Source: Deltaproteobacteria bacterium (GTDB taxonomy: Bacteria; Desulfobacterota; GWC2-55-46; DRME01). From it: a DNA stretch of 64,000 nucleotides. The stretch covers positions 12,182 through 76,181 of the forward strand of contig DRME01000063.1 in the NCBI GenBank assembly GCA_011375175.1, written 5' to 3'. Positions 1,160 through 17,153 of this stretch are shown one piece after another. Each line of letters opens with the position of its first letter. The stretch's first letter is position 1. Made by a program: the position numbers and the translations under genes. A model generated the notes under the pieces. The model did not search any database, had not been told where the DNA came from, and was given only the letters and a program-made list of their open reading frames with translations.

Positions 1160-1177
1160 CTCCGTGAAACCTCCGTT

Positions 1178-1385
1178 GAAATTTAAGGAACTCTGATTTA
1201 TTGCACTGGGGGAAACTTTCTGTAGAAAGTTTCCCCCAGACCCCCTTCAAAGACTTTAAATACGAGTTGGTTTCCCCCTGTTTTGCCTGGCAAAACAGGG
1301 GGAAACCAACTCGCGTTAAAAGTTTTTGGAGGGAGTCTGAGGGAACCGTGGGTCTGTGACCCTTTTACAAAAAGGTTCCATCGGC
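1178..1385. repeat. Composite palindromic intergenic repeat (REP/MITE-like family), copy 1
   Basis: Nested perfect hairpins gggggaaactttctgtagaaagtttccccc, ggtttccccctgttttgcctggcaaaacagggggaaacc and gggaacc…ggttcc. Near-identical to 18414–18623 and related to 21273–21460, 53700–53880 and 63490–63888. Confidence 0.8.
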
Positions 1386-1466
1386 AAGTATTGAATAATA
1401 ACAAGCGCCGGAGGCGGTTGCAAGGATTTCTTTTGATCCGCCCCGGGTCCCCTTCGGCCTAAGTCC

Positions 1467-1496
1467 TTGACAAGGCCCGCCGCCGCCTGCTAATAT
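1467..1496 (+). promoter_or_regulatory. Putative sigma70-type promoter upstream of wzm
   Basis: TTGACA (1467–1472), then an 18-nt spacer, then TAATAT (1491–1496). It lies ~130 nt upstream of the wzm start. Confidence 0.4.
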
Positions 1497-1626
1497 TTCC
1501 CGATACATTCGGGCGGCGAAGGCCCTTAGGGGCGCCGCCGGTGTCTTTCGTCTGGACGGACCCCTTCTGCGCCGGCTCCGCGTCCGGCCGGCATATCTCC
1601 GGCGCAGGGAGACTACCGCTCACCTC

Positions 1627-2391
1627 ATGAAGATACGGCACACGATAGACCTCATTTTCGTCCTCACGCACAAGGAGATGAAGATACGCTACAAGAGCAG
1701 CGTCTTCGGCTATGTCTGGTCCATCGCCCAGCCCCTGGCCTTCGCCTTCGTCTTCTACGTGGCCTTCAAGATAGTGATGCGCATCGACATGGAGGACTAC
1801 GCCCTCTTCCTCATCGCCGGGCTCTTTCCGTGGCAGTGGTTCAACAACTCGGTCACGGCGGCGCCAATGGTCTTTCTCGGCAACGCATCCATAATAAAGA
1901 AGGTCAACTTTCCGCGCAATGTCACTATTCTTGCTACGGTTTTGCAGGACATGATACACTTTGTGCTCTCCATACCGGTGCTCGTTCTCTTCATCTATAT
2001 CTACGGGCACAGCCCGGCGTACCTGGCCTGGCTCTACGGGATACCGCTTCTGCTGGCCGTGCAGCTTCTCATGGTCTACGGCGTTGCCGTGCTCATCGCG
2101 TCGATAAACCTCTTCTTCCGCGACCTCGAGAGACTTACCATCATATTGATGACCTTCATGTTCTACTTTACGCCCGTGCTCTACTCGGTGGAGATGATCC
2201 CGCGGGAGTATCTCCACCTTGTGAACCTCAACCCTGTGGCCCCGCTCATGATAAGCTGGCGCGAGCTCATCCTCCACGGCGCCCTCGACCCGGCCTCGTT
2301 CTTCATAAGCCTCGGCTACGCCGTGCTCTTCTTCCTCATAGGCCACGGCGTCTACCGCAGCCTCGCCTGGAGATTCGCGGAGGTGCTGTGA
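1627..2391 (+). CDS. wzm: ABC-2 type polysaccharide/teichoic acid export permease (Wzm/TagG/KpsM family)
   Basis: 254 aa with six predicted TM segments. It has an ABC-2 membrane domain pattern (…FPWQWFNNSV…) and is followed by an overlapping ATPase gene. Confidence 0.8.
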   Translation: MKIRHTIDLIFVLTHKEMKIRYKSSVFGYVWSIAQPLAFAFVFYVAFKIVMRIDMEDYALFLIAGLFPWQWFNNSVTAAPMVFLGNASIIKKVNFPRNVTILATVLQDMIHFVLSIPVLVLFIYIYGHSPAYLAWLYGIPLLLAVQLLMVYGVAVLIASINLFFRDLERLTIILMTFMFYFTPVLYSVEMIPREYLHLVNLNPVAPLMISWRELILHGALDPASFFISLGYAVLFFLIGHGVYRSLAWRFAEVL

Positions 2392-3158
2392 GCGAGGCCG
2401 TAATCGTCTTCGACGACGTCTGCAAGAGCTATCCCCTTTACCACCACATCACGGGGGGGCTCAAGCGTTTCCTCTTCAGCCTGCCCTCCAGTCTTTCGCA
2501 GTTGAAGAAGACCCGCTACGAGGCGCTGCGCCACATAAGCTTCGAGGTGGCCCGCGGCGAGTCCTTCGGCATAATAGGGCGCAACGGAGCGGGCAAGAGC
2601 ACGACCCTGGGGCTCATAGCCGGCGTGCTCAGGCCGACGAGCGGCACGGTGACCGTAAGGCTTCGCACCTCCCCCATGCTCGAGCTCGGCGCGGGCTTCC
2701 ATCCCGAACTCACCGGCATCGAGAACATCGTGCTCAACGGGGTCCTCCTCGGGATGACCAGGGCGGCCGTCATGGAGAAGATGGAGGAGATAATCGAGTT
2801 CTCCGAGCTCGGCGAGTTCATCGACCAGCCCATACGGGTCTATTCCAGCGGCATGCTCGCAAAGCTCGGCTTCTCGGTCATAGCACACCTGGACCCGGAG
2901 ATACTCTTGATAGACGAGATACTGGCCGTGGGGGACGTGAACTTCCAGAAAAAGTGCATCGACAAGATGTCGCAGTTCAGGCAAAAGGGTGTTACAATGT
3001 TTTTCGTCTCCCACTCCATGGCCGACGTGGAGAAAATATGCGACCGCGTACTGTGGCTCGAAGAGCGGACCATGCGCATGATCGGCCCGGCCGGCGAAGT
3101 GACCCGCGCCTACACCGAGTACTTCAACGCAGGTGAAGATGAGAAGAAAGAGGCTTGA
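2388..3158 (+). CDS. wzt: ABC transporter ATP-binding protein (Wzt/TagH/KpsT family)
   Basis: GTG start overlaps the wzm stop. It has Walker A GRNGAGKST, an ABC signature YSSGM and Walker B LLIDEILAVGD. The first ~186 aa of the track ORF 1830–3158 is an out-of-frame overlap with wzm. Confidence 0.85.
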   Translation: MSEAVIVFDDVCKSYPLYHHITGGLKRFLFSLPSSLSQLKKTRYEALRHISFEVARGESFGIIGRNGAGKSTTLGLIAGVLRPTSGTVTVRLRTSPMLELGAGFHPELTGIENIVLNGVLLGMTRAAVMEKMEEIIEFSELGEFIDQPIRVYSSGMLAKLGFSVIAHLDPEILLIDEILAVGDVNFQKKCIDKMSQFRQKGVTMFFVSHSMADVEKICDRVLWLEERTMRMIGPAGEVTRAYTEYFNAGEDEKKEA

Positions 3159-5295
3159 CATCGGCATAGTCATACCGGAACTCGCCAAGTACGGGGGGGC
3201 CGAGCGTCTGCTCATCGAGTGCGTAAGGAGGTGGCAGACGTGCCACGACATCACCATCTACGCCACCAGGTTCGACCGCGACATCCTGCGCGAGCACGGC
3301 GTAAGGCGCAGCGTGGAGCTCGTGCGCATCTCGCCCTACTACGAGGGGCCCCACTCCATACTCCTCAACTGCGTGCTCTTGCCCAAGATATGGGAGCAGG
3401 AGATAGGCGTCCACGACATCTACCATACCCACCTGTGGTCGACCCATCTCCTCGACCTCCATCCCTCGGTCTGGTATCCCCACGAGCCGCTGCGCATACT
3501 CCACGACCTGCGCTACAACCAGTCCATGGAGGGGCTCGTCAACAACCTGGTGCGCAACATCCACATCTACCCCAAGTACAACTACGACAAGGTGACCGAC
3601 GTCCTCTTCGAGGCCTACCTCAACTCCATGGACGCCTACGACAAGCTCGGAAAGCCCGACAGGATAGTGGCCAACAGCCGCTACACGGCGTCGTACCTCG
3701 AGGAGGTCTACCAGAGGAAGGTCGACGACGTCGTGTATCCGGGCGTCAACGTCGACGACTTCATATACACGCCTCCCGAAGAGAACATCGTCCTCACCAT
3801 AGGCCAGCTCTGGCCCCACAAGAGGATAAGGCTCATCATAGAGGCCGTCAAGCACGTGGAGGACGTGCAGCTCTATGTCGTGGGCAACGGTCCCGACGCG
3901 GCGAAGCTGAAGAAGACGGCCCGCAGCCTCGGTGTCTCGGACCGGGTCTTCTTCCTTCACGGCCTTACGAACCTGGAGGTGCAGATACTCTTCTCGCGGT
4001 GCATGGCCGTCGTCTTCACGCCCATCAAGGAGCCCTTCGGCATAGTGCCGCTCGAGGCCATGGCCGCGGGCAAGCCCCTCATCGGTGTGAACGAGGGCGG
4101 CTTCACCGAGGTCGTGGACGACAGTTGCGCCTTTCTCGTGCCTCCGCAGCCGCTGGCCATAGCCGAGAGGATCCGATACCTGCGCGACAACAAGGACGTG
4201 GCCGCGAAGATGGGCCTTGCGGGGCTTGAGAAGGTCAGGGCCTACAACTGGGACCGCACGGCCGAGGAGCTCATCGCCATAATAGAGGACACCCATGCCC
4301 GGTGGGAGAAGAGCCACAGGAAGCGGGCCTCCCGCAGGGGAGGAGACCGGACGCTCTTCGGCGCCCAGTACTACTGCTGGTACGGCGACGGCGTGGGGTC
4401 GGCCCACTGGAACGACAATCTCCAGTTCGGGGGGGTGACGGACATGCCCGAACTGGGCTACTACGCCTCGTCCCACGGCACCGTCATAGAAGAGCACCTG
4501 AGGACCCTCGAGGCAGCGGGCCTGGACTTCCTCATCCTCAACCTCCACCTCGACTCCGACGGCGTCAACGCATACGAGCTCGCCGTCATCGAAAACATCT
4601 TCAGCGTGGCCGAAGAGATCGGCTCGAAGCTGCGCCTGGCCGTGCAGCTCTGTTTCTACGACGCCAGGAAAAAGGACGCCGTGACGGTCCTCAAGCTCAT
4701 CGGCAAGGTGCTCTCCCGCAGGGAGCACTACCTGCGCATGAGCGGCAAGCCCGTGCTCTTCTTCTTCTGGACGGGCGTGCTCGACGGCAACAAGTCCTTC
4801 ATCTCCACGGTGGACGAGTACACGGAAGGGTTCATCCGCGTGGCCACATCCCTGCGGATGTATTCGAGGAAGACGGAGCACAAGAAGACCTTCGGCCTCT
4901 TCGACGGCTTTACGCTCTTTTCGCCCCTTGAGATGTGCGCGCCCGAGAAGTGGACGAAGCTGTGGCAGGAGGCCTACGACAACTGCGACGCCGGGGCCAT
5001 GGGACTTCAGATCATCACCGTCTCTCCAGGCTACGACGATTCGCACCTCAAGGACCCCCAGCGCCAGGGCAACATCTACAGGACCGTGGACCGCGACGGC
5101 GGGGCGACCTACCGGAAGATGCTCGACTTCACGCTCTCGCAGCAGAGGCGTCCCCACATGGTGGTGGTCTCCACCTTCAACGAGTACCATGAGAACACGC
5201 ATATCGAGGCGAGCGTGAACAACGGCTCCAGGTACATGGACATGACCAGGGCATTCATTTCCCAGGGAAGGAAACGATGGAGAAAAAGTCGATAA
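3133..5295 (+). CDS. Bifunctional glycosyltransferase: N-terminal GT4 (group-1) domain plus C-terminal GH99/WbsX-like domain
   Basis: N-terminal ~390 aa has the GT4 C-domain motifs (…FTPIKEPFGIVPLEAMAAGKPLIG…). The C-terminal ~330 aa has a GH99-like signature (YYCWYGDG…HWN…GYYASSHGTVIEEHLRTLEAAGLDF…FNEYHE). It is paralogous to 13415–15557. Confidence 0.7.
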   Translation: MKMRRKRLDIGIVIPELAKYGGAERLLIECVRRWQTCHDITIYATRFDRDILREHGVRRSVELVRISPYYEGPHSILLNCVLLPKIWEQEIGVHDIYHTHLWSTHLLDLHPSVWYPHEPLRILHDLRYNQSMEGLVNNLVRNIHIYPKYNYDKVTDVLFEAYLNSMDAYDKLGKPDRIVANSRYTASYLEEVYQRKVDDVVYPGVNVDDFIYTPPEENIVLTIGQLWPHKRIRLIIEAVKHVEDVQLYVVGNGPDAAKLKKTARSLGVSDRVFFLHGLTNLEVQILFSRCMAVVFTPIKEPFGIVPLEAMAAGKPLIGVNEGGFTEVVDDSCAFLVPPQPLAIAERIRYLRDNKDVAAKMGLAGLEKVRAYNWDRTAEELIAIIEDTHARWEKSHRKRASRRGGDRTLFGAQYYCWYGDGVGSAHWNDNLQFGGVTDMPELGYYASSHGTVIEEHLRTLEAAGLDFLILNLHLDSDGVNAYELAVIENIFSVAEEIGSKLRLAVQLCFYDARKKDAVTVLKLIGKVLSRREHYLRMSGKPVLFFFWTGVLDGNKSFISTVDEYTEGFIRVATSLRMYSRKTEHKKTFGLFDGFTLFSPLEMCAPEKWTKLWQEAYDNCDAGAMGLQIITVSPGYDDSHLKDPQRQGNIYRTVDRDGGATYRKMLDFTLSQQRRPHMVVVSTFNEYHENTHIEASVNNGSRYMDMTRAFISQGRKRWRKSR

Positions 5296-7001
5296 GGGGC
5301 CGCGGCGGGCCCGCACCGCTCTTTGCCAGGGTCGACAGGGAGAGGCTCGACCTGTCGAGGGCCAAGAGCGCTTCGTTCAATATCTCCTTTCCGGCGGCGG
5401 CGTCGGCGGTGGGCTGCGACGAGTACTTCGTGGTCGTCGACGTCTACTCGGCCCACAGCCACGTTCACCCCGAAGGACACGTAGGCTGGTGGCGCTACGA
5501 CCTCGGCGGCTGGGACGACATAAACGTCAAGGTCTCGCGGGCGGGGCGGCGGCTTTCCGTCTCTTTCAAGGGCTCCGGCAGGAGCGTGGACCAGTGGATA
5601 AACGACGACTGTCCCCGCGCCGGCGACGACGTGCTCGCCGTATCCGTCGTCATCCGCAGCAGCGAAACGGACGCCATCGAGTTCGAGGACAGGATATTCC
5701 TATATACCGACAGGGCGGCGCTCAGGCGCTCCGAGCAGTTGAGGCGCGAGGCCGCGGCCGTACCCGCCTCAATAAAAAGGCTGCCGGCGCGGTGGTTCTG
5801 CTGGCCCAGGGACGTGAAGGTCCATATCGTCGCCTGCAACATAAGGAGCCTCGACGCCGTCGGCAACTTCACCTTCGACCTCTACCGCTTCTTCAGCAGC
5901 CAGGGCATAGGGTGCCGCATATACGCCCAGTCCTTCGACCCCGCGCTGCGCGGCCTCATAAGCCACGTCTGCGAGCTCCTCTACAGCGCCGGCGAGCGGG
6001 ACCTGGTGATATTCAACTTCTCCATATACGACGAGTACCTGCGCGCCATAGCCGCTCTGCCGTGCCGCAAGATCGTCTACTACCACAACATCACGCCGCC
6101 TTCCATGTTCCAGATATACGACGCCGAGTACGCCCAGTACTGCTCGAAGGCTTACGGCCAGTTCAGGATATTGAAGGACTTCGACGTGGTAATGGTCAAC
6201 TCGCTGATGTCGAAACGGGAGTTCCTCGAGCTCGTGGAGCGCGAGCCCGACGAGAGCGAAGCGTCCGGCGAGGCCGAAGGGTTCGAGGACGCCGATGGGC
6301 AAGACGACCCGGCAGGGACGCCGGCCGGGGGCAGCCGTGACGGCGCCCCGCCCGTGCTCGTCGCCCCGCCCTTCCTCGCCGGACCGCGCAAGTGGGAGAC
6401 GGTGGAAGAGGAAGATGTGGAGATACCGCAGGCCTCGGAACTCCTGCTCTACGTGGGCAGGATAGCGCCCCACAAGAAGATCGAGGACCTGCTCCATCTC
6501 TACGACGAGTACAGGCGGCTCAGCCGCGCATCGAGGCTCCTCATCGTGGGCGCGGCCAGCTTCAAGGGCTACGGCAACTACATAAACTACCTCCTCGAAA
6601 AGGAGTTCCCGAGGATAAAGGAGAGGATACACATCTACAACGACGTGAGCGACGGCCAGCTCAAGCGTCTCTACTCGGCCGCCACGGCCTACGTCTCCAT
6701 GAGCGAGCACGAGGGATACTGCATCCCCGTGGTCGAGGCCATGGCCTTCGGAAAGCCTGTCTTCGCCTACGCCCAGGAGGCGGTACGCGAGACGCTGGGG
6801 GGCACGGGCAGGGTCTTCCATGAGAAGGACTTTCCCGCCATAGCCCGGGACATACACGGCGTGCTGACAGACGGCTCCGAGCTTGAGAAGATGCTGGCGG
6901 CCCAGGGGCGGAGGCTTGCAAGGATAGAGCGGGAAGCAGACGGCACGACGCTGTGGCGCGCCGTGGAGGCGGCTCTCTTCGGCCATGCGGGTGATCTTTA
7001 A
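5277..7001 (+). CDS. Glycosyltransferase, GT4-like C-terminal domain with a ~370-aa N-terminal region of unknown function
   Basis: C-terminus has …LYVGRIAPHKKIEDLL…EHEGYCIPVVEAMAFGKPVFAY…, the GT-B C-domain EX7E motif. The N-terminal half has no recognisable motif. It overlaps the upstream gene by 19 nt. Confidence 0.65.
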   Translation: MEKKSIRGRGGPAPLFARVDRERLDLSRAKSASFNISFPAAASAVGCDEYFVVVDVYSAHSHVHPEGHVGWWRYDLGGWDDINVKVSRAGRRLSVSFKGSGRSVDQWINDDCPRAGDDVLAVSVVIRSSETDAIEFEDRIFLYTDRAALRRSEQLRREAAAVPASIKRLPARWFCWPRDVKVHIVACNIRSLDAVGNFTFDLYRFFSSQGIGCRIYAQSFDPALRGLISHVCELLYSAGERDLVIFNFSIYDEYLRAIAALPCRKIVYYHNITPPSMFQIYDAEYAQYCSKAYGQFRILKDFDVVMVNSLMSKREFLELVEREPDESEASGEAEGFEDADGQDDPAGTPAGGSRDGAPPVLVAPPFLAGPRKWETVEEEDVEIPQASELLLYVGRIAPHKKIEDLLHLYDEYRRLSRASRLLIVGAASFKGYGNYINYLLEKEFPRIKERIHIYNDVSDGQLKRLYSAATAYVSMSEHEGYCIPVVEAMAFGKPVFAYAQEAVRETLGGTGRVFHEKDFPAIARDIHGVLTDGSELEKMLAAQGRRLARIEREADGTTLWRAVEAALFGHAGDL

Positions 7002-7995
7002 CACCTACCCCGTCGCCTTCGACTGTCCCGGCGGCGGAGAGATACAGCTCTGCAGCACGAGGAGCGCCGTCGAGGCCGCGGGGGTGGAGGTGCTGCTCTA
7101 CGACCAGTGGCGTCCCCGCCTCGACGACGCCGACCTGGTCCACTATTTCTCGGTCCAGGGCGGCTCCATGAACTTCTGCTCCCATGTGAAGCGCCGCGGG
7201 CTGCCTCTTGTCATCTCCCCCATCATATGGCTCGGCCGCGACAGGGACTCCTATCCCCTCGGCGAGATAAGGGACCTGCTCCACCTTGCGGACATGATCC
7301 TCCCGAACTCGGCGGCCGAGGCCGGGCTCCTGAGGGAGTTCTTTTCCCTGCCCGAGGAGAAGTTCACCGTAACGCACAACGGCGTTGACCGCTCCTTTGC
7401 CGCAGAGGTTGCGCCCGCGCTCTTCAGGGAGCGTTTCGGCATCGAAGGCCCCTTCGTCTTCAACGCAGCCAACGTGGAGCCCCGAAAAAACCAGCTCTCG
7501 CTGGTAAGGGCGCTCAAGGGCACGGGCATGAGGCTCGTAATCGCCGGGGGGGTGCGTGACCGCGCCTACTTCGAGGCATGCATGGCCGAGGGCGGGGGGT
7601 TCACCGCCTACGTGGGCCGCATCGCCCACGAAGACGACCTGCTCAAGAGCGCCTACGGGGGCTGCGAGCTCTTCGTGCTGCCGAGCCTCCTGGAGACGCC
7701 GGGGCTGTCGGCGCTCGAGGCGGCCGCCGCAGGGGCGAGGCTCGTTGTGACGGCCGTGGGGAGCGCAAGGGAGTACTTCGGCGACGAGGCCGTCTACGTG
7801 GACCCCTATGACGTGGACGATATAAGAAGAGGGATCGGGGAGGGGCTGGCGAGGGAGCGCGGCGGCGCTCTCAGGCGTCTCGTGACGGAGCGCTACACCT
7901 GGGAGAATACGGCCGCCGAGGTCGTCTCGGCCTATGAGGCCGTGCTGGGGCGCCGCCGCGAAGCGGGCGGCGGGGCTGGTGAGGCGGCGTGCTGA
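6985..7995 (+). CDS. Glycosyltransferase family 4 (group 1)
   Basis: 336 aa. It has …FVLPSLLETPGLSALEAAAAGARLVVT… and the GT4 architecture. Confidence 0.75.
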   Translation: MRVIFNTYPVAFDCPGGGEIQLCSTRSAVEAAGVEVLLYDQWRPRLDDADLVHYFSVQGGSMNFCSHVKRRGLPLVISPIIWLGRDRDSYPLGEIRDLLHLADMILPNSAAEAGLLREFFSLPEEKFTVTHNGVDRSFAAEVAPALFRERFGIEGPFVFNAANVEPRKNQLSLVRALKGTGMRLVIAGGVRDRAYFEACMAEGGGFTAYVGRIAHEDDLLKSAYGGCELFVLPSLLETPGLSALEAAAAGARLVVTAVGSAREYFGDEAVYVDPYDVDDIRRGIGEGLARERGGALRRLVTERYTWENTAAEVVSAYEAVLGRRREAGGGAGEAAC

Positions 7996-10900
7996 GGGAG
8001 TTCGTCGGTCCATATCTCGTCTATCCCCTCACCGAGCGCATCGAGGGCAGGCGCATCCGCCCGAAGCTCAGGGTGCTCGAGAGGGAGTGGGCGCTTCCCT
8101 TCGAGCAGAGGCTTGCGCTCCGGCGCCGGGCCCTCGGCAGGATCCTCGAGCTTGCGGGCCGCACGGTCCCCTACTACCGGGACCTCTTCAGGGCCAGGGG
8201 GTTCGACCCCTCGAAGGTCGAGAAGGACCCGGCCCGGCTCGAGGAGCTCCCGTACCTCACAAAGGAGATAATAGCCGAGCAGGGGGAGAGGCTCATAAGC
8301 GGGAACCACCGGCGTGAGGACCTCCACGAACGCAGGACCGGCGGCTCCACCGGCGCTTCCACAGTCGTCTACTATTCGCAGGAGGCGCTGGACTGGACGG
8401 CGGCGGCCAACCTCTTCGTGCTGCGCTGGACGGGCAGGGCCCCCCACATGCGCGAGGCCCGCCTGTCGAGCCGTTTTCCCGAGACCTTTCCCCTGCGGGA
8501 CAGGGTGAGGGAGTGGATAAAGTGCCTGGCGCTCAACAGGGTGAACATAACGACCGACTCCTTTGACGACGACGCCATGGCGCGGCTCTGGGAGGAGCTC
8601 AGGGCGGCGAGGCCCTACCTCGTGCAGGGCCATCCGTCGACCTTCTACGCCCTTGCCCGCTACCTCGAGAGGGAGGGGATCGAGGGCGGGGGGGTGCTGG
8701 AGGTCTTCGAGTCCACCGGCGAAGTCCTTGACAGGAGGAAACGGCAGGCTATAGAATCGATCCTCGGCTGCCGCGTCTTCGACCGCTACGGCGACGCCGA
8801 GTTCGGTGTCGTGGCCTACGAGACGGGCGGCGGCCGGGGACTGAAGGTGCTCGACGCCATGGTCTGGCCCGAGACGGCGCCCGTGGAAGGGGGACGCCCC
8901 GGCAAGGACGCGCCGGGGGAAGAGCCGGGGGAAGAGATCGTCCTTACGGGCCTCACGAACGACGCCATGCCCCTTGTGAGGTATCGCACGGGGGACCTCG
9001 GCATACTCGAAGAGCGCGGGGACGGCTTCTATCTCGACTCCATAGCGGGCCGTGTGCACGACAGGGTGAGGATCGGCGCCAAAAGCTACCCGACCCACTA
9101 CATACAGGACGTGCTCGACAGGCTCGGGCGGATCCACGACTTCCAGATCGAGCTCTGCGACGGCGGGGCGCCCCTTCTGCGGCTCGTGGTGCCCGACGAG
9201 GCGGCGAGACCGGCCATAGAGGAGCGCATCAGGAAGTGGTGGGGAAGGGCCGTGGAGATCGAGTTCTGCGACTTCGCGGGACTCAGGCGGGTGGGCTGGC
9301 GCGGCAAGTTCAGGTACGTGGTCGGCGGCGGGGCGGACGCAGCCTCCCCGCCTTGTCAAGGGGAAGAGGGTATCATGAGGCAAGAGGCAGCGATTGAAAC
9401 GGACGCCCCGGAAGGGGGTGCAGGCTCCGGCCGCGGGCGGCGGCCCCTGTCCGTCTCCCACTCAAGCGGCTGGTACGCCCCTGAAAACGACGGCGTTCGG
9501 GAGTTCCGCTGGTCTTCTCTCGACGCCACCTTCACCATCGACCGGCTGCCGGCTCCCCGGCCTCCCTTCCTGATGATCTACGCCGGCTCGCCGCCGACAG
9601 GCTCCCGCCGAAGGCTCACCCTCTCTGGCGAGGGCGGAGAGGCCTCGCTCGAGGTGAAGCCTGGCTGGCGCTGGTACGTCTTCCCCCTCGACGGCACCAT
9701 CGGGGCCGGCAGGAAGGGGCGCATCGCCGTGGACGTCCCCTTCAGGGCGCCGGGCGACGACAGGACCCTGGGCCTGATGGTCTCGCGCATCGAGTGGTGC
9801 GACGACTTCCACATGCTCTTTGTAAACGACGAGATATCATCGGCCGTAAGACCGGACGTGGAGCTCGTCGAGGGATGGCACGGGCTCGAGGACAGCGGCG
9901 AGAGGCCTTTCCGCTGGTGCGCCGCCGAGGCGACCGTGAGGATAAACCGTCCGCTCGATGGCTGCAAGCCTTTCGTCGTGGTGCGCGCCGGTCTTCCCGA
10001 AGGGTCGGCGCCGAGGCGTATGAGCTTCAGGGGGCGGGCCGGAGAGATGTCCTTCCAGTGCCGGCCGGGCTGGCGCTACTATATCTTTCCCCTGCGGGAT
10101 GTCATGGGCGGCGACAACCTCGTGACCCTGACGGTCGACGGCGCGCAGGTCGACGGGGCCGACGGGCGCACCCTCGGCGTGATGGTGAGCTCCGTGGAGC
10201 TCGCTTCGAGTTACGGCATGCTCCACGTAAACGACGAGGCCTCGGCCGCCGGGCCGCCGGAGGTGGAGCTCCTCGACGGCTGGCGCGCGCTCGAAGAGAC
10301 CGGCCCGTTCCGCTTCCGCTGGTGCGCCGCCGAGGCGACGGGCCGCATAAACGGCCGGTCCGGCGGGGAGGGAGGGCGTCTCGTCGTGCGCTGCGCGCTT
10401 CCCCGTGGAGCCGCTTCGGCCCGCCTCGTCCTCTCCGGCGCCCGCGGGAGCCGCGGTGCGGAACTTCTCGACGGCTGGCGCTTCTATTCCTTCCCCCTCA
10501 AAGAGACGGTGGGAGACGACGGCCGCTTCACCCTCACTGTCGATGGCGGCTGCGTCGTCGGAGACGACGGCGCAAGGCTCGGCGTCATGGTCAGCTCCGT
10601 CGAGCTCGCCGACGATGGGGCCATGGAGGTCTACGACGAGCGCAGGGAGTTCAAAGACGCCGTCCTCTACGAGCTGCGAACGGAAGAGGGGGTTAAGGGG
10701 GCCGTAACCGTCGGCGGCGCGCCGGGCGGAGGGAAGAAGGTCTACCTCGACGTCACCTACGTGGCCGACCCGAGGCGGGGGGGACGCGCGGCCTTCAAGG
10801 CCGGGGGCTTCCACTGCTCGCCGAGGGTGCTCGGCGGGGGGCTGCGCTCCTTTTCCATCGAGGTGCCCGGCGCCGCGCTCGCCGAAGACCGCGCGCTGGC

Positions 10901-12086
10901 CTTCGAGAGCGAAGAGCCCCTTCGAGTGCGCGACATAGTGGTAAGGGCCGACTACTACGACTACATGGGGCTTCGCTCCGGCGAGCACTACGACCGGGAG
11001 GCGAGGGAGGCCGAGGCCCGCTCCATGGAGCGGGCCGGGAGGATCGGGCTCTCCATACAGTGGTTCGTCACATGGAAGTGCACGCTCAAGTGCCCCTACT
11101 GCTGGCAGGAGATAGAGAAGGGCATATACCGGTCCGAGTCGCTCAACCGCATCCCTCCGCAGCGGTGGGCCGAGGGCTTCAACGCCCTGAGACCCGCCAT
11201 GCTCTACTTCACGGGGGGCGAGCCCTCGCTCTACAAGCGCCTGCCCGAGCTCGTGAACCTGCTCGACGGGGATATAAGCCTCATGATGACCTCCAACCTC
11301 GGCCCCTCCTTCGACGTGGAGAGGTTCGCGTCGGTCGTGCCGGCCGACAGGTTCCACGAACTCACCTTCAGCTTCCACCCCACCCAGCAGGACTACGACG
11401 GCTTCTTCGCAAAGCTCGGCTATCTCGCCGAAAAGAAGGTGAAGAACCTGCAGGTGGAGATGGTCCTCTACCCGGAGAACCTGCCCTGGGCCGCCCGGGT
11501 GCTCGATGAGTGCCGCAGGCTCGGCGTGGCGCTCCGCTACGACCCCTGCGTGAGCTCGGAGACCGAGCGCATCGACCTCTCGGGGCTCGACAGGGAGGAG
11601 GTGAGGGACTGGGTCCGCCGGGCCGTGGAGCACACGGCGACGGTGAAGGAGCTCGACCCGGCCTCGGACAGGGACCGCTACTACGACTTCGACAAGAGCC
11701 AGTTCTGGGACGAGTGCGCCGAACCGGACCCCACAGCCCACACCGTAGAGGATGAAGAGCTCCGGTGTGGGGGGGCGGAGGCGGAGAAGCCCCCGGTGGG
11801 ACGCTTCCCCATATTCTGCCCGGCCGGCATGAGGCGCATAAACGTGGACGGCAACGGAAACGCCTTCGTCTGCATGAGCGCCGTGGGCAGGGGCAAGGTC
11901 TTCGGGGCCGAGGCCCTGCCCCACTACGGCTCCATAGGCAACATATTCTCCGAAGACTTCAGGCTCCTCGAGCGTCCCGTCATCTGCTGGGAGTCGTTCC
12001 GCTGCTCGGCCTGCGACTTCCAGCTCCTCGACAGGGCCTGGACCGCCATGGCCCCCCGGCTCAAGGGGCTCCCCATACCGGAATGA
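7989..12086 (+). CDS. Multidomain protein: CapK/PaaK-like adenylate-forming ligase, three copies of a ~125-aa unassigned repeat module, and a radical SAM/SPASM domain
   Basis: aa 1–~450 match the coenzyme F390 synthetase/CapK family (RTGGSTGASTVVYYS…, LVQGHPSTFYALARY). aa ~470–1000 hold three related repeats (GW..LE..G.FRW…GWR.Y.FPL…LT…DDR.LGVMVS.VE). aa ~1010–1365 hold an rSAM core (CTLKCPYC) and a Cys-rich C-terminus (CPAG…CMSAVG…CWESFRCSAC). It is one uninterrupted ORF. Possible internal starts at ~9377 (preceded by GGAAGAGGG) and ~11024 have no intervening stop. Confidence 0.65.
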   Translation: MLREFVGPYLVYPLTERIEGRRIRPKLRVLEREWALPFEQRLALRRRALGRILELAGRTVPYYRDLFRARGFDPSKVEKDPARLEELPYLTKEIIAEQGERLISGNHRREDLHERRTGGSTGASTVVYYSQEALDWTAAANLFVLRWTGRAPHMREARLSSRFPETFPLRDRVREWIKCLALNRVNITTDSFDDDAMARLWEELRAARPYLVQGHPSTFYALARYLEREGIEGGGVLEVFESTGEVLDRRKRQAIESILGCRVFDRYGDAEFGVVAYETGGGRGLKVLDAMVWPETAPVEGGRPGKDAPGEEPGEEIVLTGLTNDAMPLVRYRTGDLGILEERGDGFYLDSIAGRVHDRVRIGAKSYPTHYIQDVLDRLGRIHDFQIELCDGGAPLLRLVVPDEAARPAIEERIRKWWGRAVEIEFCDFAGLRRVGWRGKFRYVVGGGADAASPPCQGEEGIMRQEAAIETDAPEGGAGSGRGRRPLSVSHSSGWYAPENDGVREFRWSSLDATFTIDRLPAPRPPFLMIYAGSPPTGSRRRLTLSGEGGEASLEVKPGWRWYVFPLDGTIGAGRKGRIAVDVPFRAPGDDRTLGLMVSRIEWCDDFHMLFVNDEISSAVRPDVELVEGWHGLEDSGERPFRWCAAEATVRINRPLDGCKPFVVVRAGLPEGSAPRRMSFRGRAGEMSFQCRPGWRYYIFPLRDVMGGDNLVTLTVDGAQVDGADGRTLGVMVSSVELASSYGMLHVNDEASAAGPPEVELLDGWRALEETGPFRFRWCAAEATGRINGRSGGEGGRLVVRCALPRGAASARLVLSGARGSRGAELLDGWRFYSFPLKETVGDDGRFTLTVDGGCVVGDDGARLGVMVSSVELADDGAMEVYDERREFKDAVLYELRTEEGVKGAVTVGGAPGGGKKVYLDVTYVADPRRGGRAAFKAGGFHCSPRVLGGGLRSFSIEVPGAALAEDRALAFESEEPLRVRDIVVRADYYDYMGLRSGEHYDREAREAEARSMERAGRIGLSIQWFVTWKCTLKCPYCWQEIEKGIYRSESLNRIPPQRWAEGFNALRPAMLYFTGGEPSLYKRLPELVNLLDGDISLMMTSNLGPSFDVERFASVVPADRFHELTFSFHPTQQDYDGFFAKLGYLAEKKVKNLQVEMVLYPENLPWAARVLDECRRLGVALRYDPCVSSETERIDLSGLDREEVRDWVRRAVEHTATVKELDPASDRDRYYDFDKSQFWDECAEPDPTAHTVEDEELRCGGAEAEKPPVGRFPIFCPAGMRRINVDGNGNAFVCMSAVGRGKVFGAEALPHYGSIGNIFSEDFRLLERPVICWESFRCSACDFQLLDRAWTAMAPRLKGLPIPE

Positions 12087-13405
12087 GCGGCGGCGCGGGA
12101 GAGGACGGCATCATGTTCGTACTGCAGGACCTCAAGAGAGCAAGACCCATCGAGTTCGACGGCCACGTCCACTTCACCTGGCTCGGCGAGGAGTCGGTCT
12201 TCGACATCGAGTGGCCCGCAGGAGCGGTGACGGGCACCCCCTTCCTCGAACTGCGGCTCGGCTACCCCGAAAAGGACCGGGACAAGCGGATAACGGCCTC
12301 CGGCGCGGTCGTGGAGGGCGGAGCGGTCAGCCTGCCCGTGGAGCGCGGATGGACGAGCTACTTCATCCCCCTCAGGGGGGGCAGGGGGGGAGGCGGGGGG
12401 CCGGTTACGCTTACGGTGAATAAGCCCCTCGACGCGCCCGGTGACGACCGTTTTCTCGGCGTGATGCTCTCCTACGGCGCCGTCACCGACGATGTGCGGC
12501 GCATAGATGAGATACGCCGGGTGAGCCGCGCCGTGAACGAAGGGCTCGATGCCTGCCGGGACGTGGAGCATGAGAGGTGGAACGAAAGGCTCCGGGAGCG
12601 CTTCATCGCCGACGGCGACGACTTCTATACCGCCAACGTCCAGCCCTCTCCGACGGCCCGCGTCCTGGAGGACCCGGTGGAGAGCCTCTCGGTGCGCTAC
12701 AAGCGGGAGCGCTGGATAGCCGGGAAGGTCGAGGGGCCCGGCGTGCTCCTCGACGTGGGCTGCGGCCACGGCGGGCTCACGGCCCTGAAGAAGAAGGGGG
12801 TGGACCTCATAGGGCTGGACCTCTCGTTCGAGAACTGCGCGACGGCGAGAGGGCGCGGCTACGACCTCTGCATAAAGGGCTCGGCCGTTGAGCTCCCCCT
12901 GAGGGACTCGTCGGTCGACTACCTGGTCTCGCTCGACGTGCTCGGCCACATACCGGCGGAGCTCAAGGGCCGCATGATCGACGAGTTCCACCGCGTGCTG
13001 CGGCCCGGCGGCCTCTGTCTCCACCTCATAGAGACCGACAGGTTCGTCCCCTCGGAGATGGACCCGGCCGACTACATGCGCATGGTCGTGGTGGACGGCC
13101 ACGTGGGCATAGAGGAGAGGGCGAAGAGCGAAGCGCTCTTCGCCGCGCGCTTCGAGATCGTCGAGAGCTTTCTGGTCGGCAACGTCTGCATGTCCCTCGA
13201 GCACTGGGTGAGGGCCCACGACCTCTACGGCGCCAACCTGCCGGGCGAGCTCGTCGCCTTCTTCCTCAACGCCTCGGAGCGCGAGCGCCGGTTCTTCGAC
13301 ATCGGCGCGGGCTGGACCTTCTGGAAACTGGTGGACGAGGGCTATGACTCGAAGTCGTCGGGCGGACTGCTCTTCCTTCACGCAAGGAAGCCTTTCGAGG
13401 GGTAG
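12083..13405 (+). CDS. Class I SAM-dependent methyltransferase with one N-terminal copy of the ~125-aa repeat module
   Basis: ATG overlaps the upstream stop (ATGA). The N-terminus (…FTWLGEESVFDIEWP…RGWTSYFIPL…PVTLTVNKPLDAPGDDRFLGVMLSYGAV) aligns to the repeats in 7989–12086. The C-terminus has MTase motif I VLDVGCGHGGLT, then …LDLS…VDYLVSLDVLGHIP… and FHRVLRPGG. Confidence 0.75.
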   Translation: MSGGAGEDGIMFVLQDLKRARPIEFDGHVHFTWLGEESVFDIEWPAGAVTGTPFLELRLGYPEKDRDKRITASGAVVEGGAVSLPVERGWTSYFIPLRGGRGGGGGPVTLTVNKPLDAPGDDRFLGVMLSYGAVTDDVRRIDEIRRVSRAVNEGLDACRDVEHERWNERLRERFIADGDDFYTANVQPSPTARVLEDPVESLSVRYKRERWIAGKVEGPGVLLDVGCGHGGLTALKKKGVDLIGLDLSFENCATARGRGYDLCIKGSAVELPLRDSSVDYLVSLDVLGHIPAELKGRMIDEFHRVLRPGGLCLHLIETDRFVPSEMDPADYMRMVVVDGHVGIEERAKSEALFAARFEIVESFLVGNVCMSLEHWVRAHDLYGANLPGELVAFFLNASERERRFFDIGAGWTFWKLVDEGYDSKSSGGLLFLHARKPFEG

Positions 13406-13414
13406 GGTGGGGCG

Positions 13415-14494
13415 GTGCCCGGCAGTGGATGCAGGGAAGACGGCTTGAAGAGAAGGAGCTGCATACTCGCGGCCGCGGTCCTGGGAGTTCTCGCAGCCGC
13501 GGCCCTGGCCTTTTCACTGTGGTGGTGCGAGCCGTCGCGCCGGCTCGTCCGCGCCGTAGACCTCCACGCCACGGCCCCGGACGTGCGCTTCGGCGTCTAC
13601 TTCTATCCCTGGTACGACAAGGGCCGCTGGGCCGTGCCCCGCCGCCACACCCCCCTTCGTGGCGAGTACGACTCGACCGACCCCGGGCTCATAGCCGCCC
13701 AGATGGACGAGATACGCTCGGCGGGCTTCGACTACGTAATCATCGAGATGGTCCCGCCCGACGACCACGCCTTCGGGGTGGTGGAGAAGGGCATCGAGGC
13801 GGCCGTTGCGAGGCTGCGCGAGATCGGCATGGAGTGGACCTTCCTCATCGACGCGGCCTTCCTGCTCGCCCCGGAGCGGACCGCGAAGATCCACGACATG
13901 ATGGCATACATCGAAAAGCGGGGCTGGACCGACGGACTGACCGACGGGCCGACCGGCAGGGACCTGCTTCTGGTCTTCGCGCCCGACGCCCACGAGGCCG
14001 ACCTGCTGCTCGACCGCTACGGCGGGCGCTACGAGCTGCGCTTTCCGAACTTCCATCCCCGCTGGTCCATGGCCGTTGACGAGGAGATCATCATACCGGG
14101 CCCGAGGACCGGGCGCCTGAGGGAGAAGGCCCGCACGGGGCGGGTCTCCATATACGAGTATCTCAAGGCCCTCGGTTTCATCGCCTTCTGGACGGAGACG
14201 GGGCAGATGCGCCTTTTCGACGGCTTCGTGTCGGTGGTGCCTGGCTATGACGACACGCTCCTGGAGCGCACTCCCCAGGTGGCCCCCATAGTGGGACGGC
14301 GCGAGGGACGCACCTACGCCGAACAGCTCGAAAGGGCCATGGCGCTGGGCCCCGAGCACGTGCTCGTCTACAGCTGGAACGAGTACCTCGAGGCCACGGC
14401 CATAGAGCCCACAAGGGAGTTCGGCCGTCTCTACGTGGATATGACCCGCCGGTTCATCGAGCGGGTGCGCTCGGCGCGGGCCCAGGCCCACTGA
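13415..14494 (+). CDS. GH99/WbsX-like domain protein with signal/anchor peptide (paralog 1)
   Basis: Contains VYFYPWYDKGRW…HTPLRGEYDSTDPGLIAAQMDEIRSAGFDYVII…YSWNEYLEATAIEP. The FYYPWYG/G.Y.S.D/..Q…AG pattern is GH99 (endo-mannosidase-like). The N-terminus is hydrophobic. The true start may be the TTG at ~13448 (MKRRSCILAAAV…). Confidence 0.7.
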   Translation: MPGSGCREDGLKRRSCILAAAVLGVLAAAALAFSLWWCEPSRRLVRAVDLHATAPDVRFGVYFYPWYDKGRWAVPRRHTPLRGEYDSTDPGLIAAQMDEIRSAGFDYVIIEMVPPDDHAFGVVEKGIEAAVARLREIGMEWTFLIDAAFLLAPERTAKIHDMMAYIEKRGWTDGLTDGPTGRDLLLVFAPDAHEADLLLDRYGGRYELRFPNFHPRWSMAVDEEIIIPGPRTGRLREKARTGRVSIYEYLKALGFIAFWTETGQMRLFDGFVSVVPGYDDTLLERTPQVAPIVGRREGRTYAEQLERAMALGPEHVLVYSWNEYLEATAIEPTREFGRLYVDMTRRFIERVRSARAQAH

Positions 14495-15560: not shown

Positions 15561-17153
15561 ATGGAGATAGCGGTCCTGCATCACGAGGGGGAGGAGGTGG
15601 CAGGCGCCGTCGTGGAGGCGGCGATGGTCCGCTCCTTCACCGCCGGACAGGTGCGCCGCCGCACCTACGACACCATGGGGGAGCTCCCGGCCGGGGCCGT
15701 GCTCGTCGCCCCCGGCGACGGCGAGAGGGCCCTCGTGGAGAGGCTTTCAAGGGGAGGGCGCAAGGTCCTGGTCCTCGGCGAGCCCGGCCGTGAGGTCGCG
15801 CCGCTTCTCGGGCTCCGCACCGGCGCCCTGCCCGGCGAGGCGAAGGCGTGGCACCACGTGCGTCTCGACGGGAGTGAGCCCTTCAACGCTTCCCCGGTCT
15901 CGGTCCGTTACGACCGATCCCACGGCCTCGGCGCGGCGGCGGTCCTCGAGGAGCGGCCCCTTGCGCGATACGACTTCACCGACGAGTGGAACAACCTCGG
16001 CTACGGCCGCATGGGGCCATGGCCGGAAGAGGAGGGCGGCGGTCTCTGGGCCGTGGCCTGCCTGGCCGACGCCGACGGCGCGCGTCCCCTGGCGGCGCTC
16101 ACCGGCGGCGGCCGCCGCCTCTCGCTCTACGCAGCGGTCCTCGACCTGCCCCATGCCTCGCTCCTGTGGTTCAACAGGGCCGCCGGGCCCGTGGACAGCG
16201 TGGAATGGCGGCTCGTCGAGACCTTCTTCTGCGACTACAGGGCCGGAGAGCTTCCGACCTTCCCGCTTCTGTGCGAGGTGCCCTACGGCCTCGACGGTCT
16301 GGTGACCATGCGCCTGGACTGCGACCAGGCCGTCTCGTCGGCCCGTTGCCTCTTCGAGCTCTACAGTGACGAGGGCGTACCCTTTTCCATGGCCGTGACG
16401 CCGGGGATCGGGCTCGACGGCGAGGACATGAGACTCCTGAGGGACGTTGCGCGAAGCGGAGGGTCGCTGCTCACGCACTCCATGAGCCATCGGCCCGACT
16501 GGGGCGGCTGTTACGAGGCGGCCGTCGATGAGGTGAGGCGCTCGGTCTCCTGGCTGGAAGGCCATATCGAGGGGGCCGCGCCGGTGCGTTACGCCGTCTC
16601 GCCCTTCCACCGCAACCCCCCTTTCGCCGTGAGGGCCATGGCCGATGCCGGCATCGCCGCCTTCGTGGGCGGCATAATACACAACGACCCCCAGTATCTA
16701 CTGGGCCGCGCAGGCCGCGTCCCGGCCCTGCCGGAGTGCGCCGGACCCATGGTCTCGCTGAGCCAGCAGTGCATGCTCCACGGCGACTGCTTCCACCGCT
16801 ACGGCGACAGCGTCGAGCCCTACATCGAGTCCTTCTTCAACCACCTCGCCGCGGGCTCGATCTTCGGGTACCTGGACCATCCCTTCTCCGAGGCCTACAG
16901 CTACGGCTGGCGCGACGAGGAGGAGCGGGCCGGGGCCCACAGGGCCCTGATGGATGCGGTTAAGGGCGCGGGGAACATCGGGTTTTCTTCGCTCGGCGAG
17001 TGTCTCGACTTCCTCGTCATGCGAGACCGCGTGGTGCTGAGAAGCGATGGGGGCCGCCTCGTCGCCGAGGGGGCGACGGAGCAGGCGGGCCTGGAGCTCG
17101 CCGTGCGCCGCGACGGCGAGGTGCGACGGGCCGTCGAGGTGAGAAGGCCGTGA
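15561..17153 (+). CDS. Putative polysaccharide deacetylase (CE4/NodB-like) with N-terminal extension
   Basis: 530 aa. It has NodB-like motif 1 (…LVTMRLDCDQ…) and motif 2 (LLTHSMSHRP). The assignment is tentative. Confidence 0.45.
   Translation: MEIAVLHHEGEEVAGAVVEAAMVRSFTAGQVRRRTYDTMGELPAGAVLVAPGDGERALVERLSRGGRKVLVLGEPGREVAPLLGLRTGALPGEAKAWHHVRLDGSEPFNASPVSVRYDRSHGLGAAAVLEERPLARYDFTDEWNNLGYGRMGPWPEEEGGGLWAVACLADADGARPLAALTGGGRRLSLYAAVLDLPHASLLWFNRAAGPVDSVEWRLVETFFCDYRAGELPTFPLLCEVPYGLDGLVTMRLDCDQAVSSARCLFELYSDEGVPFSMAVTPGIGLDGEDMRLLRDVARSGGSLLTHSMSHRPDWGGCYEAAVDEVRRSVSWLEGHIEGAAPVRYAVSPFHRNPPFAVRAMADAGIAAFVGGIIHNDPQYLLGRAGRVPALPECAGPMVSLSQQCMLHGDCFHRYGDSVEPYIESFFNHLAAGSIFGYLDHPFSEAYSYGWRDEEERAGAHRALMDAVKGAGNIGFSSLGECLDFLVMRDRVVLRSDGGRLVAEGATEQAGLELAVRRDGEVRRAVEVRRP

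What the first reader, a model, noticed from the sequence alone, without database searches (positions are those of the whole stretch)
7989..12086. 1365-aa single ORF fusing a CapK/PaaK-like adenylating ligase, three copies of an unassigned repeat module and a radical SAM/SPASM domain
I do not know of any precedent for this domain combination. The architecture suggests a substrate, perhaps a sugar acid or acyl group, is activated by adenylation and then transformed by radical chemistry within one polypeptide. The three ~125-aa repeats (GW..LE..G.FRW…GWR.Y.FPL…LT…DDR.LGVMVS.VE) are candidate carbohydrate-binding or scaffold modules. No stop codon separates the domains. However, plausible internal start sites exist at ~9377 (GGAAGAGGG-N6-ATG) and ~11024, so the fusion could be a read-through of three genes or a sequencing artefact.
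Basis: partly seen in the sequence, partly recalled or inferred. Interest (0 to 1): 0.85.

Follow-up and report, generated by a model that had tools for sequence, protein, structure and literature searches.

The report
Ligase fused to sugar-binding radical SAM enzyme
A real 1365-residue gene in a polysaccharide gene cluster joins an ATP-dependent ligase to a radical SAM enzyme that carries sugar-binding-like modules; the ligase join is a recent one-off, but the module family behind it is widespread and undescribed.

Summary
The ORF (7989-12086, +, 1365 aa, no in-frame stop) is real and assembles identically in three assemblies. It has five parts. (1) A PaaK-like adenylate-forming ligase (aa 1-445). 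(2) A 44-aa low-complexity linker. (3) Three tandem 135-aa modules that model as CBM35/CBM6-like beta-jelly-rolls. (5) A radical SAM domain with CX3CX2C plus five auxiliary cysteines (Twitch or partial SPASM, not canonical SPASM). Module + sandwich + rSAM is a conserved single-protein architecture elsewhere, with 0-1 modules, so the proposed internal start near 11024 is not supported. The ligase is normally stand-alone (59 of 63 complete ORFs). It travels with GT4 and CE4-like deacetylase genes, not with this rSAM family. In two syntenic loci the ligase ends in a stop codon just upstream of a module-bearing rSAM gene. The window's junction keeps an RBS-like motif and an ATG, has the lowest GC3 of the ORF, and is one mutation away from two genes. 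The best reading is a recent gene fusion of neighbouring glycan-tailoring enzymes in an ABC-transporter-dependent polysaccharide cluster. The module family (at least 255 representative proteins) decorates rSAM enzymes, methyltransferases and sulfotransferases.

The parts
7989..12086 (+). Whole ORF, 1365 aa (NCBI: hypothetical protein ENJ37_04995, Deltaproteobacteria MAG, hydrothermal-vent metagenome)
7989..9323 (+). PaaK-like adenylate-forming ligase domain (aa 1-445). It ends at the family's C-terminal GWRGKFRYVV motif.
9324..9455 (+). Fusion linker (aa 446-489), G/A/S/P/E-rich, with the lowest GC3 of the ORF. It contains TGT 9354-9356 and CAA 9357-9359 (each one base from a stop codon), SD-like GGGGAAGAGGG 9360-9370, ATG 9375-9377 (M463), and a +1-frame TGA at 9376-9378 (an ATGA overlap motif).
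9456..9806 (+). CBM-like module copy 1 (aa 490-606)
9858..10208 (+). CBM-like module copy 2 (aa 624-740). Modelled as a beta-jelly-roll, pLDDT 87.6.
10263..10616 (+). CBM-like module copy 3 (aa 759-876)
10638..10946 (+). Family-specific N-terminal beta-sandwich of the rSAM family (aa ~884-986), also CBM35-like by fold. It is followed by the conserved R.DYYD[YF].GL[RK]S motif.
11022..12083 (+). Radical SAM core plus auxiliary-cluster domain (aa ~1012-1365). CX3CX2C lies at 11079-11102. The five invariant auxiliary Cys (aa 1277, 1295, 1333, 1339, 1342) lie within 11817-12014. The C-terminus has the conserved LP[IL]PE motif.
12083..13405 (+). Adjacent gene: one CBM-like module (about nt 12146-12490) fused to a class I SAM methyltransferase. 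ATG 12083 overlaps the ORF's TGA; ATG 12113 is an alternative start.
6985..7995 (+). GT4 glycosyltransferase directly upstream and translationally coupled. It is a conserved neighbour of the ligase family.
15561..17153 (+). 530-aa CE4/NodB-like putative polysaccharide deacetylase, the most consistent companion of the ligase family
1627..3158 (+). Wzm (ABC-2 permease, 1627-2391) and Wzt (ABC ATPase, ~2424-3158, 244 aa, no C-terminal CBM): the export system of the cluster

Best explanation
The ORF is a real gene in a cluster that builds a polysaccharide by the ABC-transporter-dependent route. The cluster holds Wzm/Wzt, six or more GT4 genes plus a GT2, GH99/WbsX-like genes, a Bac_transf priming enzyme, methyltransferases and a CE4-like deacetylase. 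The ORF is a recent fusion of two neighbouring tailoring enzymes. Part A is a PaaK-like adenylate-forming ligase that is normally a stand-alone ~440-aa protein. Part B is a conserved 'CBM-like module(s) + CBM-like sandwich + radical SAM/Twitch-like' enzyme, here with the module triplicated. Shown: the domain identities, the folds, the conservation of part B as one protein, the stand-alone default of part A, synteny with unfused loci, and the scar-like junction. Inferred: because both catalysts need cytoplasmic cofactors (ATP; SAM plus a reductant), the four beta-sandwich domains bind the nascent lipid-linked polymer on the cytoplasmic face. They would hold the catalysts on it, as the same module probably does for the adjacent methyltransferase. 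The rSAM domain would abstract a hydrogen atom from a sugar residue; the outcome (oxidation, epimerisation, dehydration or decarboxylation) is unknown. The ligase would activate a carboxylate with ATP to form an amide or ester on the glycan. The most plausible reaction is re-acylation of an amine freed by the CE4-like deacetylase; the alternative is modification of a uronic acid carboxylate. The fusion co-localises two tailoring steps and does not create a new coupled reaction.
Against: No biochemical data exist for any of the three uncharacterised families. Carbohydrate binding by the module is inferred from fold and partner domains only, at 7-16% identity to CBMs. The fused form is known from a single MAG population, and all three assemblies probably derive from the same reads. 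Two Planctomycetaceae copies of the rSAM family lie outside any glycan cluster. The retained RBS and ATG at M463 could mean part B is still also made separately.
Confidence: 0.6

Rival explanations
1. In the cell these are effectively two proteins. Either the missing stop at the ligase/module junction is a consensus error or a minority or strain-level polymorphism, or translation re-initiates at M463 (ATG 9375) so that the module-rSAM enzyme is still made on its own and the fused product is incidental.
For: One base change (TAA->CAA at 9357 or TGA->TGT at 9354-9356), or a +/-1 indel in the G-run after RYVV feeding the +1-frame TGA at 9376-9378, interconverts the fused and unfused forms. An SD-like motif and ATG are retained. 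The junction has non-coding-like GC3. The closest syntenic loci are unfused. 59 of 63 ligases are stand-alone. The fused form is seen in only one population.
Against: Three assemblers gave identical sequence. Illumina consensus errors at one specific codon are rare. Other natural fusions of this ligase exist. The linker length and composition are typical of a functional interdomain linker.
Confidence: 0.22
2. One reading: one substrate is adenylated by the ligase and then transformed by the radical SAM domain, or the reverse, in an obligatorily coupled, channelled reaction within one polypeptide.
For: The domains are physically fused. Ligase followed by a module-bearing rSAM gene is conserved in three syntenic loci. 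Structural neighbours BlsE and DesII act on sugar nucleotides or nucleosides, BlsE on a uronic acid, which is a carboxylate an adenylating enzyme could also address.
Against: Only 1 marginal hit to this rSAM family in 80 ligase loci. Apart from the window itself, only one of nine other distinct rSAM-family loci (L002) has the ligase. In L094 and L002 the rSAM next to the ligase is a different family with no detectable similarity in its catalytic part. The ligase's consistent partners are a CE4-like deacetylase and GT4s. The rSAM's commonest adjacent partner is a methyltransferase, in 5 of 10 distinct loci.
Confidence: 0.13
3. The C-terminal enzyme is a peptide-modifying (RiPP-type) SPASM/Twitch maturase and the beta-sandwich repeats bind a peptide or protein, not a glycan.
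For: The top structural neighbours SuiB, SkfB, PqqE and anSME act on peptides or proteins. Two family members lie outside glycan clusters.
Against: No RRE-type domain or precursor peptide gene is evident. In 8 of 10 distinct loci the rSAM gene has glycan-related neighbours (methyltransferase, sulfotransferase, GT4, GH99/WbsX-like or ABC-2 transporter genes). The module's other partners are methyltransferases, sulfotransferases and GT/GH domains. The module fold is closest to CBMs.
Confidence: 0.04

Closest known systems
Phenylacetate-CoA ligase PaaK and PaaK-like ANL ligases (PDB 2y4o, 2y27, 4r1l, 6siw; AjiA1 6wuq)
   Same: End-to-end alignable two-domain adenylate-forming fold. The P-loop (TGGSTG), YRTGD and GR..D hinge motifs and a C-terminal lysine-containing motif (GWRGKF) are conserved.
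   Different: Only 52-55 bits against PaaK equivalog cut-offs of 646-700. The genomic context is glycan assembly (GT4, CE4-like, Wzm/Wzt), not aromatic catabolism. Both the acyl substrate and the acceptor are unknown.
SPASM/Twitch radical SAM enzymes (SuiB, SkfB, anSME, PqqE, MoaA; sugar-acting BlsE, DesII, AbmM, BtrN)
   Same: A partial TIM barrel with CX3CX2C and GGE motifs, followed by a C-terminal Cys-rich auxiliary-cluster domain that starts with a CX12GX4C beta-hairpin. BlsE is a radical SAM enzyme that uses cytosylglucuronic acid as its substrate (PMC3715490).
   Different: At most 19% identity. Five invariant auxiliary Cys spaced C-x17-C...C-x5-C-x2-C instead of the 7-Cys SPASM motif, with no Pfam SPASM hit. 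It has an N-terminal CBM-like sandwich, not an RRE or peptide-binding domain. The reaction is unknown.
CBM35 / CBM6 / CBM22 / CBM36 carbohydrate-binding modules
   Different: 7-16% identity, with no Pfam or NCBIfam match. It is attached to cytoplasmic biosynthetic tailoring enzymes (rSAM, methyltransferase, sulfotransferase) and not to secreted glycoside hydrolases. Binding is untested.
Glycan recognition in ABC-transporter-dependent O-antigen assembly: Wzt C-terminal CBM, the WbdD terminator, and the K. pneumoniae O7 ORF6 terminator with a predicted CBM (PMC11231755, PMC3482155)
   Same: A polymer completed in the cytoplasm is recognised by beta-sandwich modules and decorated by methyltransferase-type enzymes. 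[quoted passage not shown]
   Different: Here Wzt (244 aa) lacks a CBM. No coiled-coil ruler was seen. The module sits on rSAM, methyltransferase and sulfotransferase enzymes, and any relation to chain termination is unknown.
Natural fusions of the same ligase family to glycosyltransferases (P0002-P0007 GT2-ligase; P0008/P0009, L051/L052 ligase-GT4)
   Same: The same ligase family (40-52% identity) is fused through a short linker right after the GWR.KF.Y.V motif to a neighbouring glycan-assembly enzyme.
   Different: The partner is a glycosyltransferase and never a radical SAM enzyme or CBM-like module. Those fusions recur in many clusters, whereas this one is seen once.

Membership tests
PaaK (phenylacetate-CoA ligase) equivalogs / DVU_1553-family ligase (NCBIfam) | Whole-protein HMM score at or above the curated cut-off | tested here: not met
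   DVU_1553 family 84 bits against 300; PaaK TIGR02155 52 bits against 646; NF041878 55 bits against 700. No Pfam AMP-binding hit for the window protein.
ANL superfamily, PaaK-like subgroup (fold level) | End-to-end alignment to solved PaaK-type ligases with the P-loop, the YRTGD motif and the GR hinge | tested here: met
   2y4o aligned over query 43-401 at E 9e-11; 4r1l at E 4e-13; motifs aligned. 128 invariant columns, including these motifs, across 9 family members.
ANL superfamily, PaaK-like subgroup | ATP-dependent adenylation of a carboxylate, and the identity of the acceptor | not testable with these tools
   Needs ATP-PPi exchange or product analysis.
Radical SAM superfamily | CX3CX2C cluster motif, GGE SAM-binding motif, partial TIM-barrel fold | tested here: met
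SPASM domain (PF13186; 7-Cys CX9-15GX4C...CX2CX5CX3C...C) | Pfam SPASM hit and full seven-cysteine spacing for two auxiliary clusters | tested here: not met
   No SPASM hit at E<=1. Only five invariant Cys: CX12GX4C is present, followed by C-x5-C-x2-C.
Twitch-type radical SAM enzymes (one auxiliary cluster) | A C-terminal beta-hairpin Cys pair plus a distal CxxC that ligate a single auxiliary [4Fe-4S] cluster | tested here: inconclusive
   The cysteine pattern and the structural neighbours SkfB, BlsE, MoaA and BtrN are compatible. Cluster stoichiometry cannot be determined in silico.
Carbohydrate-binding modules (CBM35/CBM6-like) | Beta-jelly-roll fold | tested here: met
Carbohydrate-binding modules (CBM35/CBM6-like) | Sequence membership in a CAZy/Pfam CBM family, and demonstrated glycan binding | tested here: not met
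   No Pfam or NCBIfam hit in aa 463-1010, and 7-16% identity to structural matches. Binding itself is not testable here.
ABC-transporter-dependent polysaccharide (O-antigen/capsule-type) gene cluster | Wzm/Wzt pair, several glycosyltransferases and a priming phosphoglycosyl transferase in one locus | tested here: met
   ABC2_membrane and ABC_tran; GT4 genes at 3133, 5277, 6985, 17150 and 18701; GT2 at 22991; Bac_transf at 19857-21272. The same gene order occurs in L002 and L094.

The most novel reading that the evidence does not exclude
The fused protein is a working bifunctional enzyme in which CBM-like modules clamp a nascent, lipid-linked polysaccharide in the cytoplasm while a radical SAM domain performs radical chemistry directly on the polymer and the ligase acylates or amidates it. 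More broadly, the undescribed module would be a general polymer-targeting device. It would define a class of polymer-level tailoring enzymes in ABC-transporter-dependent glycan pathways: two radical SAM families, methyltransferases and sulfotransferases.
Probability: 0.3. Interest if true: 0.8.

Novelty: new variant of a known kind. Interest (0 to 1): 0.55.

Why it matters
No paper in the searchable library describes radical SAM chemistry on bacterial surface polysaccharides. A 2024 study of Klebsiella O antigens (PMC11231755) states that a CBM had been predicted in only one chain-terminating enzyme. This locus exposes a widespread, unannotated CBM-like module: at least 255 representative clusters, spanning Planctomycetota, Omnitrophota, SAR202, Paraburkholderia and marine metagenomes. 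The module is appended to two unrelated radical SAM families, methyltransferases and sulfotransferases in glycan clusters. If it binds the nascent polymer, it gives a handle for predicting which tailoring enzymes act at polymer level, and a tractable system (Paraburkholderia sp. BR10923, P0022) for discovering the rSAM reaction. The ligase fusion itself is a 'Rosetta-stone' hint that the ligase/CE4-like and module-rSAM steps act on the same glycan. It is probably a recent, lineage-specific event and not a new enzymatic principle.

Tried and rejected
(1) A word-prefiltered database search with a 9-sequence repeat alignment found nothing. The exhaustive HMMER search was needed instead. (2) Internal start near 11024: rejected because the upstream ~130 aa are a conserved family domain. 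(3) Assembler artefact: rejected because three assemblies agree at 100% identity. Read-level heterogeneity remains untested. (4) The Radical_SAM gene in the A. butzleri ligase locus (L012 5218-6615) is not detectably related to the window's rSAM. (5) The single rSAM-profile hit among 80 ligase loci (L052) is marginal at 4.9e-6 and lies in a ligase C-fusion locus. (6) NCBIfam and PDB sequence searches gave nothing for the 530-aa partner gene. Its identification as CE4-like rests on orthologues: PF01522 at 23.5 bits against a 23.1 cut-off in L012 and 19.2 bits in L094, with only E=0.3 for the window copy. (7) A regex for methyltransferase motif I found nothing and was replaced by Pfam scans. (8) Rfam at gathering threshold found no RNA family in 1-26000. 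(9) Literature searches for PaaK/CapK in capsule synthesis and for radical SAM in polysaccharide synthesis found no characterisation of these families. (10) Canonical SPASM membership was tested and not met.
Full report
OBSERVATION. The window contains a single ORF at 7989-12086 (+), 1365 aa, with no in-frame stop. Its GTG start overlaps the TGA of the upstream GT4 gene (GTGCTGA), and the N-terminus matches that of homologous ligases. The identical protein is in NCBI as a hypothetical protein of a Deltaproteobacteria MAG. It occurs on three contigs from different assemblies of a hydrothermal-vent metagenome. One of these is 100% identical to the window over 10,098 nt. An assembler artefact is therefore unlikely, but the three assemblies probably share the same reads.

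ANATOMY. (i) aa 1-445 form a PaaK-like adenylate-forming ligase. NCBIfam gives the DVU_1553 family at 9e-24 and PaaK models at about 1e-14, all far below equivalog cut-offs. Solved PaaK structures align end to end, with the P-loop, YRTGD and GR hinge motifs conserved. Every homologue's ligase domain ends at GWR.KF.Y.V.
(ii) aa 446-489 form a G/A/S/P/E-rich linker.
(iii) Three tandem modules of exactly 135 aa (405 nt) lie at aa 490-606, 624-740 and 759-876. They are 34-47% identical to each other, with profile E-values of 4e-37 to 1e-26.
(v) aa ~1012-1365 form a radical SAM domain. CX3CX2C (C1031/1035/1038), GGEP and five further cysteines (C-x17-C...C-x5-C-x2-C) are invariant in 45 family members.

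WHICH JOINS ARE CONSERVED. The rSAM part has a populated, uncharacterised family: 72 hits at 35-52% identity over the full query, all 616 aa or shorter. All full-length members inspected begin with the sandwich domain and the R.DYYD[YF].GL[RK]S motif, and several (P0016, P0036, P0037) have one copy of the module in front. So module + sandwich + rSAM is one protein in several phyla, and the window's version differs by having three modules. An internal start near 11024 would cut off a conserved domain and is not supported. The ligase is the opposite case. Of 63 complete ligase ORFs from metagenomes, 59 are stand-alone and stop 2-12 residues after RYVV. Two are fused to a downstream GT4-sized domain and two to an upstream domain. 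None is fused to an rSAM domain or a module. Among the 150 best module-bearing representatives, only the window protein contains the ligase.

THE JUNCTION. After RYVV the window reads ...GGGADAASPP-TGT-CAA-GGGGAAGAGGG-TATC-ATG.... A single substitution (TAA->CAA or TGA->TGT) would remove a stop at the position where homologues stop. Alternatively, a +/-1 indel in the preceding G-run would disconnect the ligase frame from the +1-frame TGA at 9376-9378. That TGA overlaps ATG 9375-9377 as ATGA, the same coupling motif found at the ORF/methyltransferase boundary at 12083-12086. The 44 linker codons have GC3 of 0.70 against 0.88 for the ORF. The ORF's minimum lies at aa 449, within the lowest 1.7% of windows. 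The junction therefore looks like former intergenic DNA.

SYNTENY. Two loci share the window's gene order (Wzm, Wzt, GT4-GH99, GT4, (GT4), ligase, module-bearing rSAM gene..., CE4-like gene, GT4). One is L002/L006, a Planctomycetia MAG whose ligase is 57-60% identical. The other is L094, whose ligase is 58% identical. In both, the ligase ends in a stop codon and is followed, after ~316 nt or 65 nt, by a gene encoding CBM-like module(s) fused to a radical SAM domain. That rSAM belongs to a different family, with a CX5CX2C motif and a SPASM-like C-terminus, and its catalytic part shows no BLASTP similarity to the window's. L002 additionally has the window-type rSAM further downstream, next to a methyltransferase. 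So 'ligase followed by a module-bearing rSAM' is conserved in this cluster type, while the fusion is unique to the window.

WHO TRAVELS WITH WHOM. In 38 ligase loci of at least 12 kb, the recurrent neighbours are the CE4-like 530-aa gene (22), GT4_6985 (25), GT4_17150 (22), GT4-GH99 (24) and Wzm/Wzt (20). The window-type rSAM gave only one marginal hit in the 80 loci, and the module appeared only in L094. The 530-aa partner is CE4/NodB-like through its orthologues: PF01522 at 23.5 bits, just above the cut-off, in A. butzleri and 19.2 bits in L094, with E=0.3 for the window copy. The rSAM family has a SAM methyltransferase next to it in 5 of 10 distinct loci (window, L001, L002, L003/L004, L007). 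In other loci the neighbour is a sulfotransferase (L010) or a second module-bearing rSAM (L008, and also L002). Two copies lie outside glycan clusters. The module family has 255 representatives at E<=1e-3 and 67 at E<=1e-10, with 1-6 tandem copies, mostly N-terminal. In 89 representatives the partner domains were Radical_SAM (29, of which 11 have a Pfam SPASM hit), class I methyltransferases (8), FkbM methyltransferases (3), sulfotransferases (8 and 5), and single GT2, GT4, GH99, GH130, GDSL and PMT_2 cases. Within one cluster the module can sit on several enzymes: in Paraburkholderia on the methyltransferase and on a GH99/WbsX-like protein, and in the window on the rSAM enzyme and the methyltransferase.

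MECHANISM (inference). ATP-dependent ligases and radical SAM enzymes work in the cytoplasm. In ABC-transporter-dependent pathways the whole polymer is built there on a lipid carrier before export (established knowledge; PMC11231755). CBM-like modules on cytoplasmic tailoring enzymes therefore make sense only in such pathways, and that is where this module is found. I infer that the four beta-sandwiches tether the enzyme to the nascent polymer. The rSAM domain would abstract a hydrogen from a sugar residue with an unknown outcome; its sugar-acting structural neighbours BlsE and DesII are precedents for radical chemistry on sugars (PMC3715490 for BlsE; DesII from my own knowledge). The ligase, together with the CE4-like deacetylase, would replace or add an acyl or amide substituent. 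This is the same logic as the deacetylase/ATP-dependent ligase pair MshB/MshC in mycothiol synthesis (my own knowledge, as an analogy only). The fusion would co-localise these steps. Because ligase and rSAM are otherwise independent, a coupled adenylation-radical reaction is unlikely (about 0.13).

COMPARISON AND NOVELTY. Each catalytic domain belongs to a known superfamily but to an uncharacterised family. PaaK equivalog membership and canonical SPASM membership were tested and not met. The module is CBM-like by fold but belongs to no described family. Literature searches found no characterisation. PMC11231755 notes that a CBM had been predicted in only one O-antigen terminator enzyme. The three-way fusion is unprecedented in the searched collections, but it is best explained as a recent stop-loss fusion in one population. 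I rate it a new variant of a known kind. The broader value lies in the module family and the two rSAM families it marks.

VERDICT. Interest is 0.55. The fusion alone is less remarkable than proposed. The underlying, previously unannotated polymer-targeting module on radical SAM, methyltransferase and sulfotransferase tailoring enzymes is worth follow-up.

Noticed in passing
window 1229-1257 (-), 18460-18488 (-), 21387-21415 (+): Three exact copies of a 29-nt box (AAAGTCTTTGAAGGGGGTCTGGGGGAAAC), each followed by a strong hairpin (a perfect 15-bp stem in two copies; -33.4 kcal/mol, z -3.5 for the 18460 copy). They lie in the three larger intergenic gaps of the polysaccharide cluster; none are expected by chance. 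No Rfam family matched. Possibly a REP-like, terminator or regulatory element.
   Followed up: partly
window 15561-17153 (+): A 530-aa gene with no Pfam hit above threshold and no NCBIfam or PDB sequence hit. It is the most consistent companion of the ligase family (22 of 38 long loci). Its A. butzleri and L094 orthologues hit Polysacc_deac_1 (CE4/NodB) near threshold, and NodB-like 'DCD' and 'HSMSH' motifs are visible by eye.
   Followed up: partly
L094 11368-12837; L002 6691-8462; L008 11305-13401: A second, unrelated radical SAM family with a non-canonical CX5CX2C motif (CNIKPPCVYC) and a SPASM-like C-terminus. It is the commonest partner of the CBM-like module (at least 37 of ~150 representatives) and sits directly after the ligase in the syntenic loci.
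   Followed up: partly
window 13415-14494 and 14505-15557 (+); also 3133-5295: Two tandem paralogous GH99/WbsX-like genes with N-terminal hydrophobic segments, plus a GT4 fused to a GH99-like domain. Similar genes are multiplied in the Paraburkholderia locus L001, one of them carrying the CBM-like module.
   Followed up: no
L002 (Planctomycetia MAG contig_11569) 966-3112, 5050-6374, 6691-8462: Several genes of this syntenic locus are split by frameshifts (GT4-GH99, the ligase, the module-rSAM gene). This suggests indel errors in that long-contig assembly and not pseudogenes.
   Followed up: no
P0002, P0005 (A. butzleri-type GT2-ligase fusions), within the ligase domain: These homologues carry an insertion of roughly 130 aa (W-rich, '...QNVYPYGLTAQSQEFWHWW...') at the position of the window's short 'WPETAPVEGGRPGKDAPGEEPGEE' loop. 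Its function is unknown.
   Followed up: no
window 5277-6380 (+) and 23988-26021 (-): The N-terminal ~370 aa of the GT4 at 5277-7001 and a 676-aa multi-pass membrane protein at 23988-26021 have no significant Pfam match. L094 has a PMT_2-like 863-aa membrane protein at the end of its cluster.
   Followed up: no
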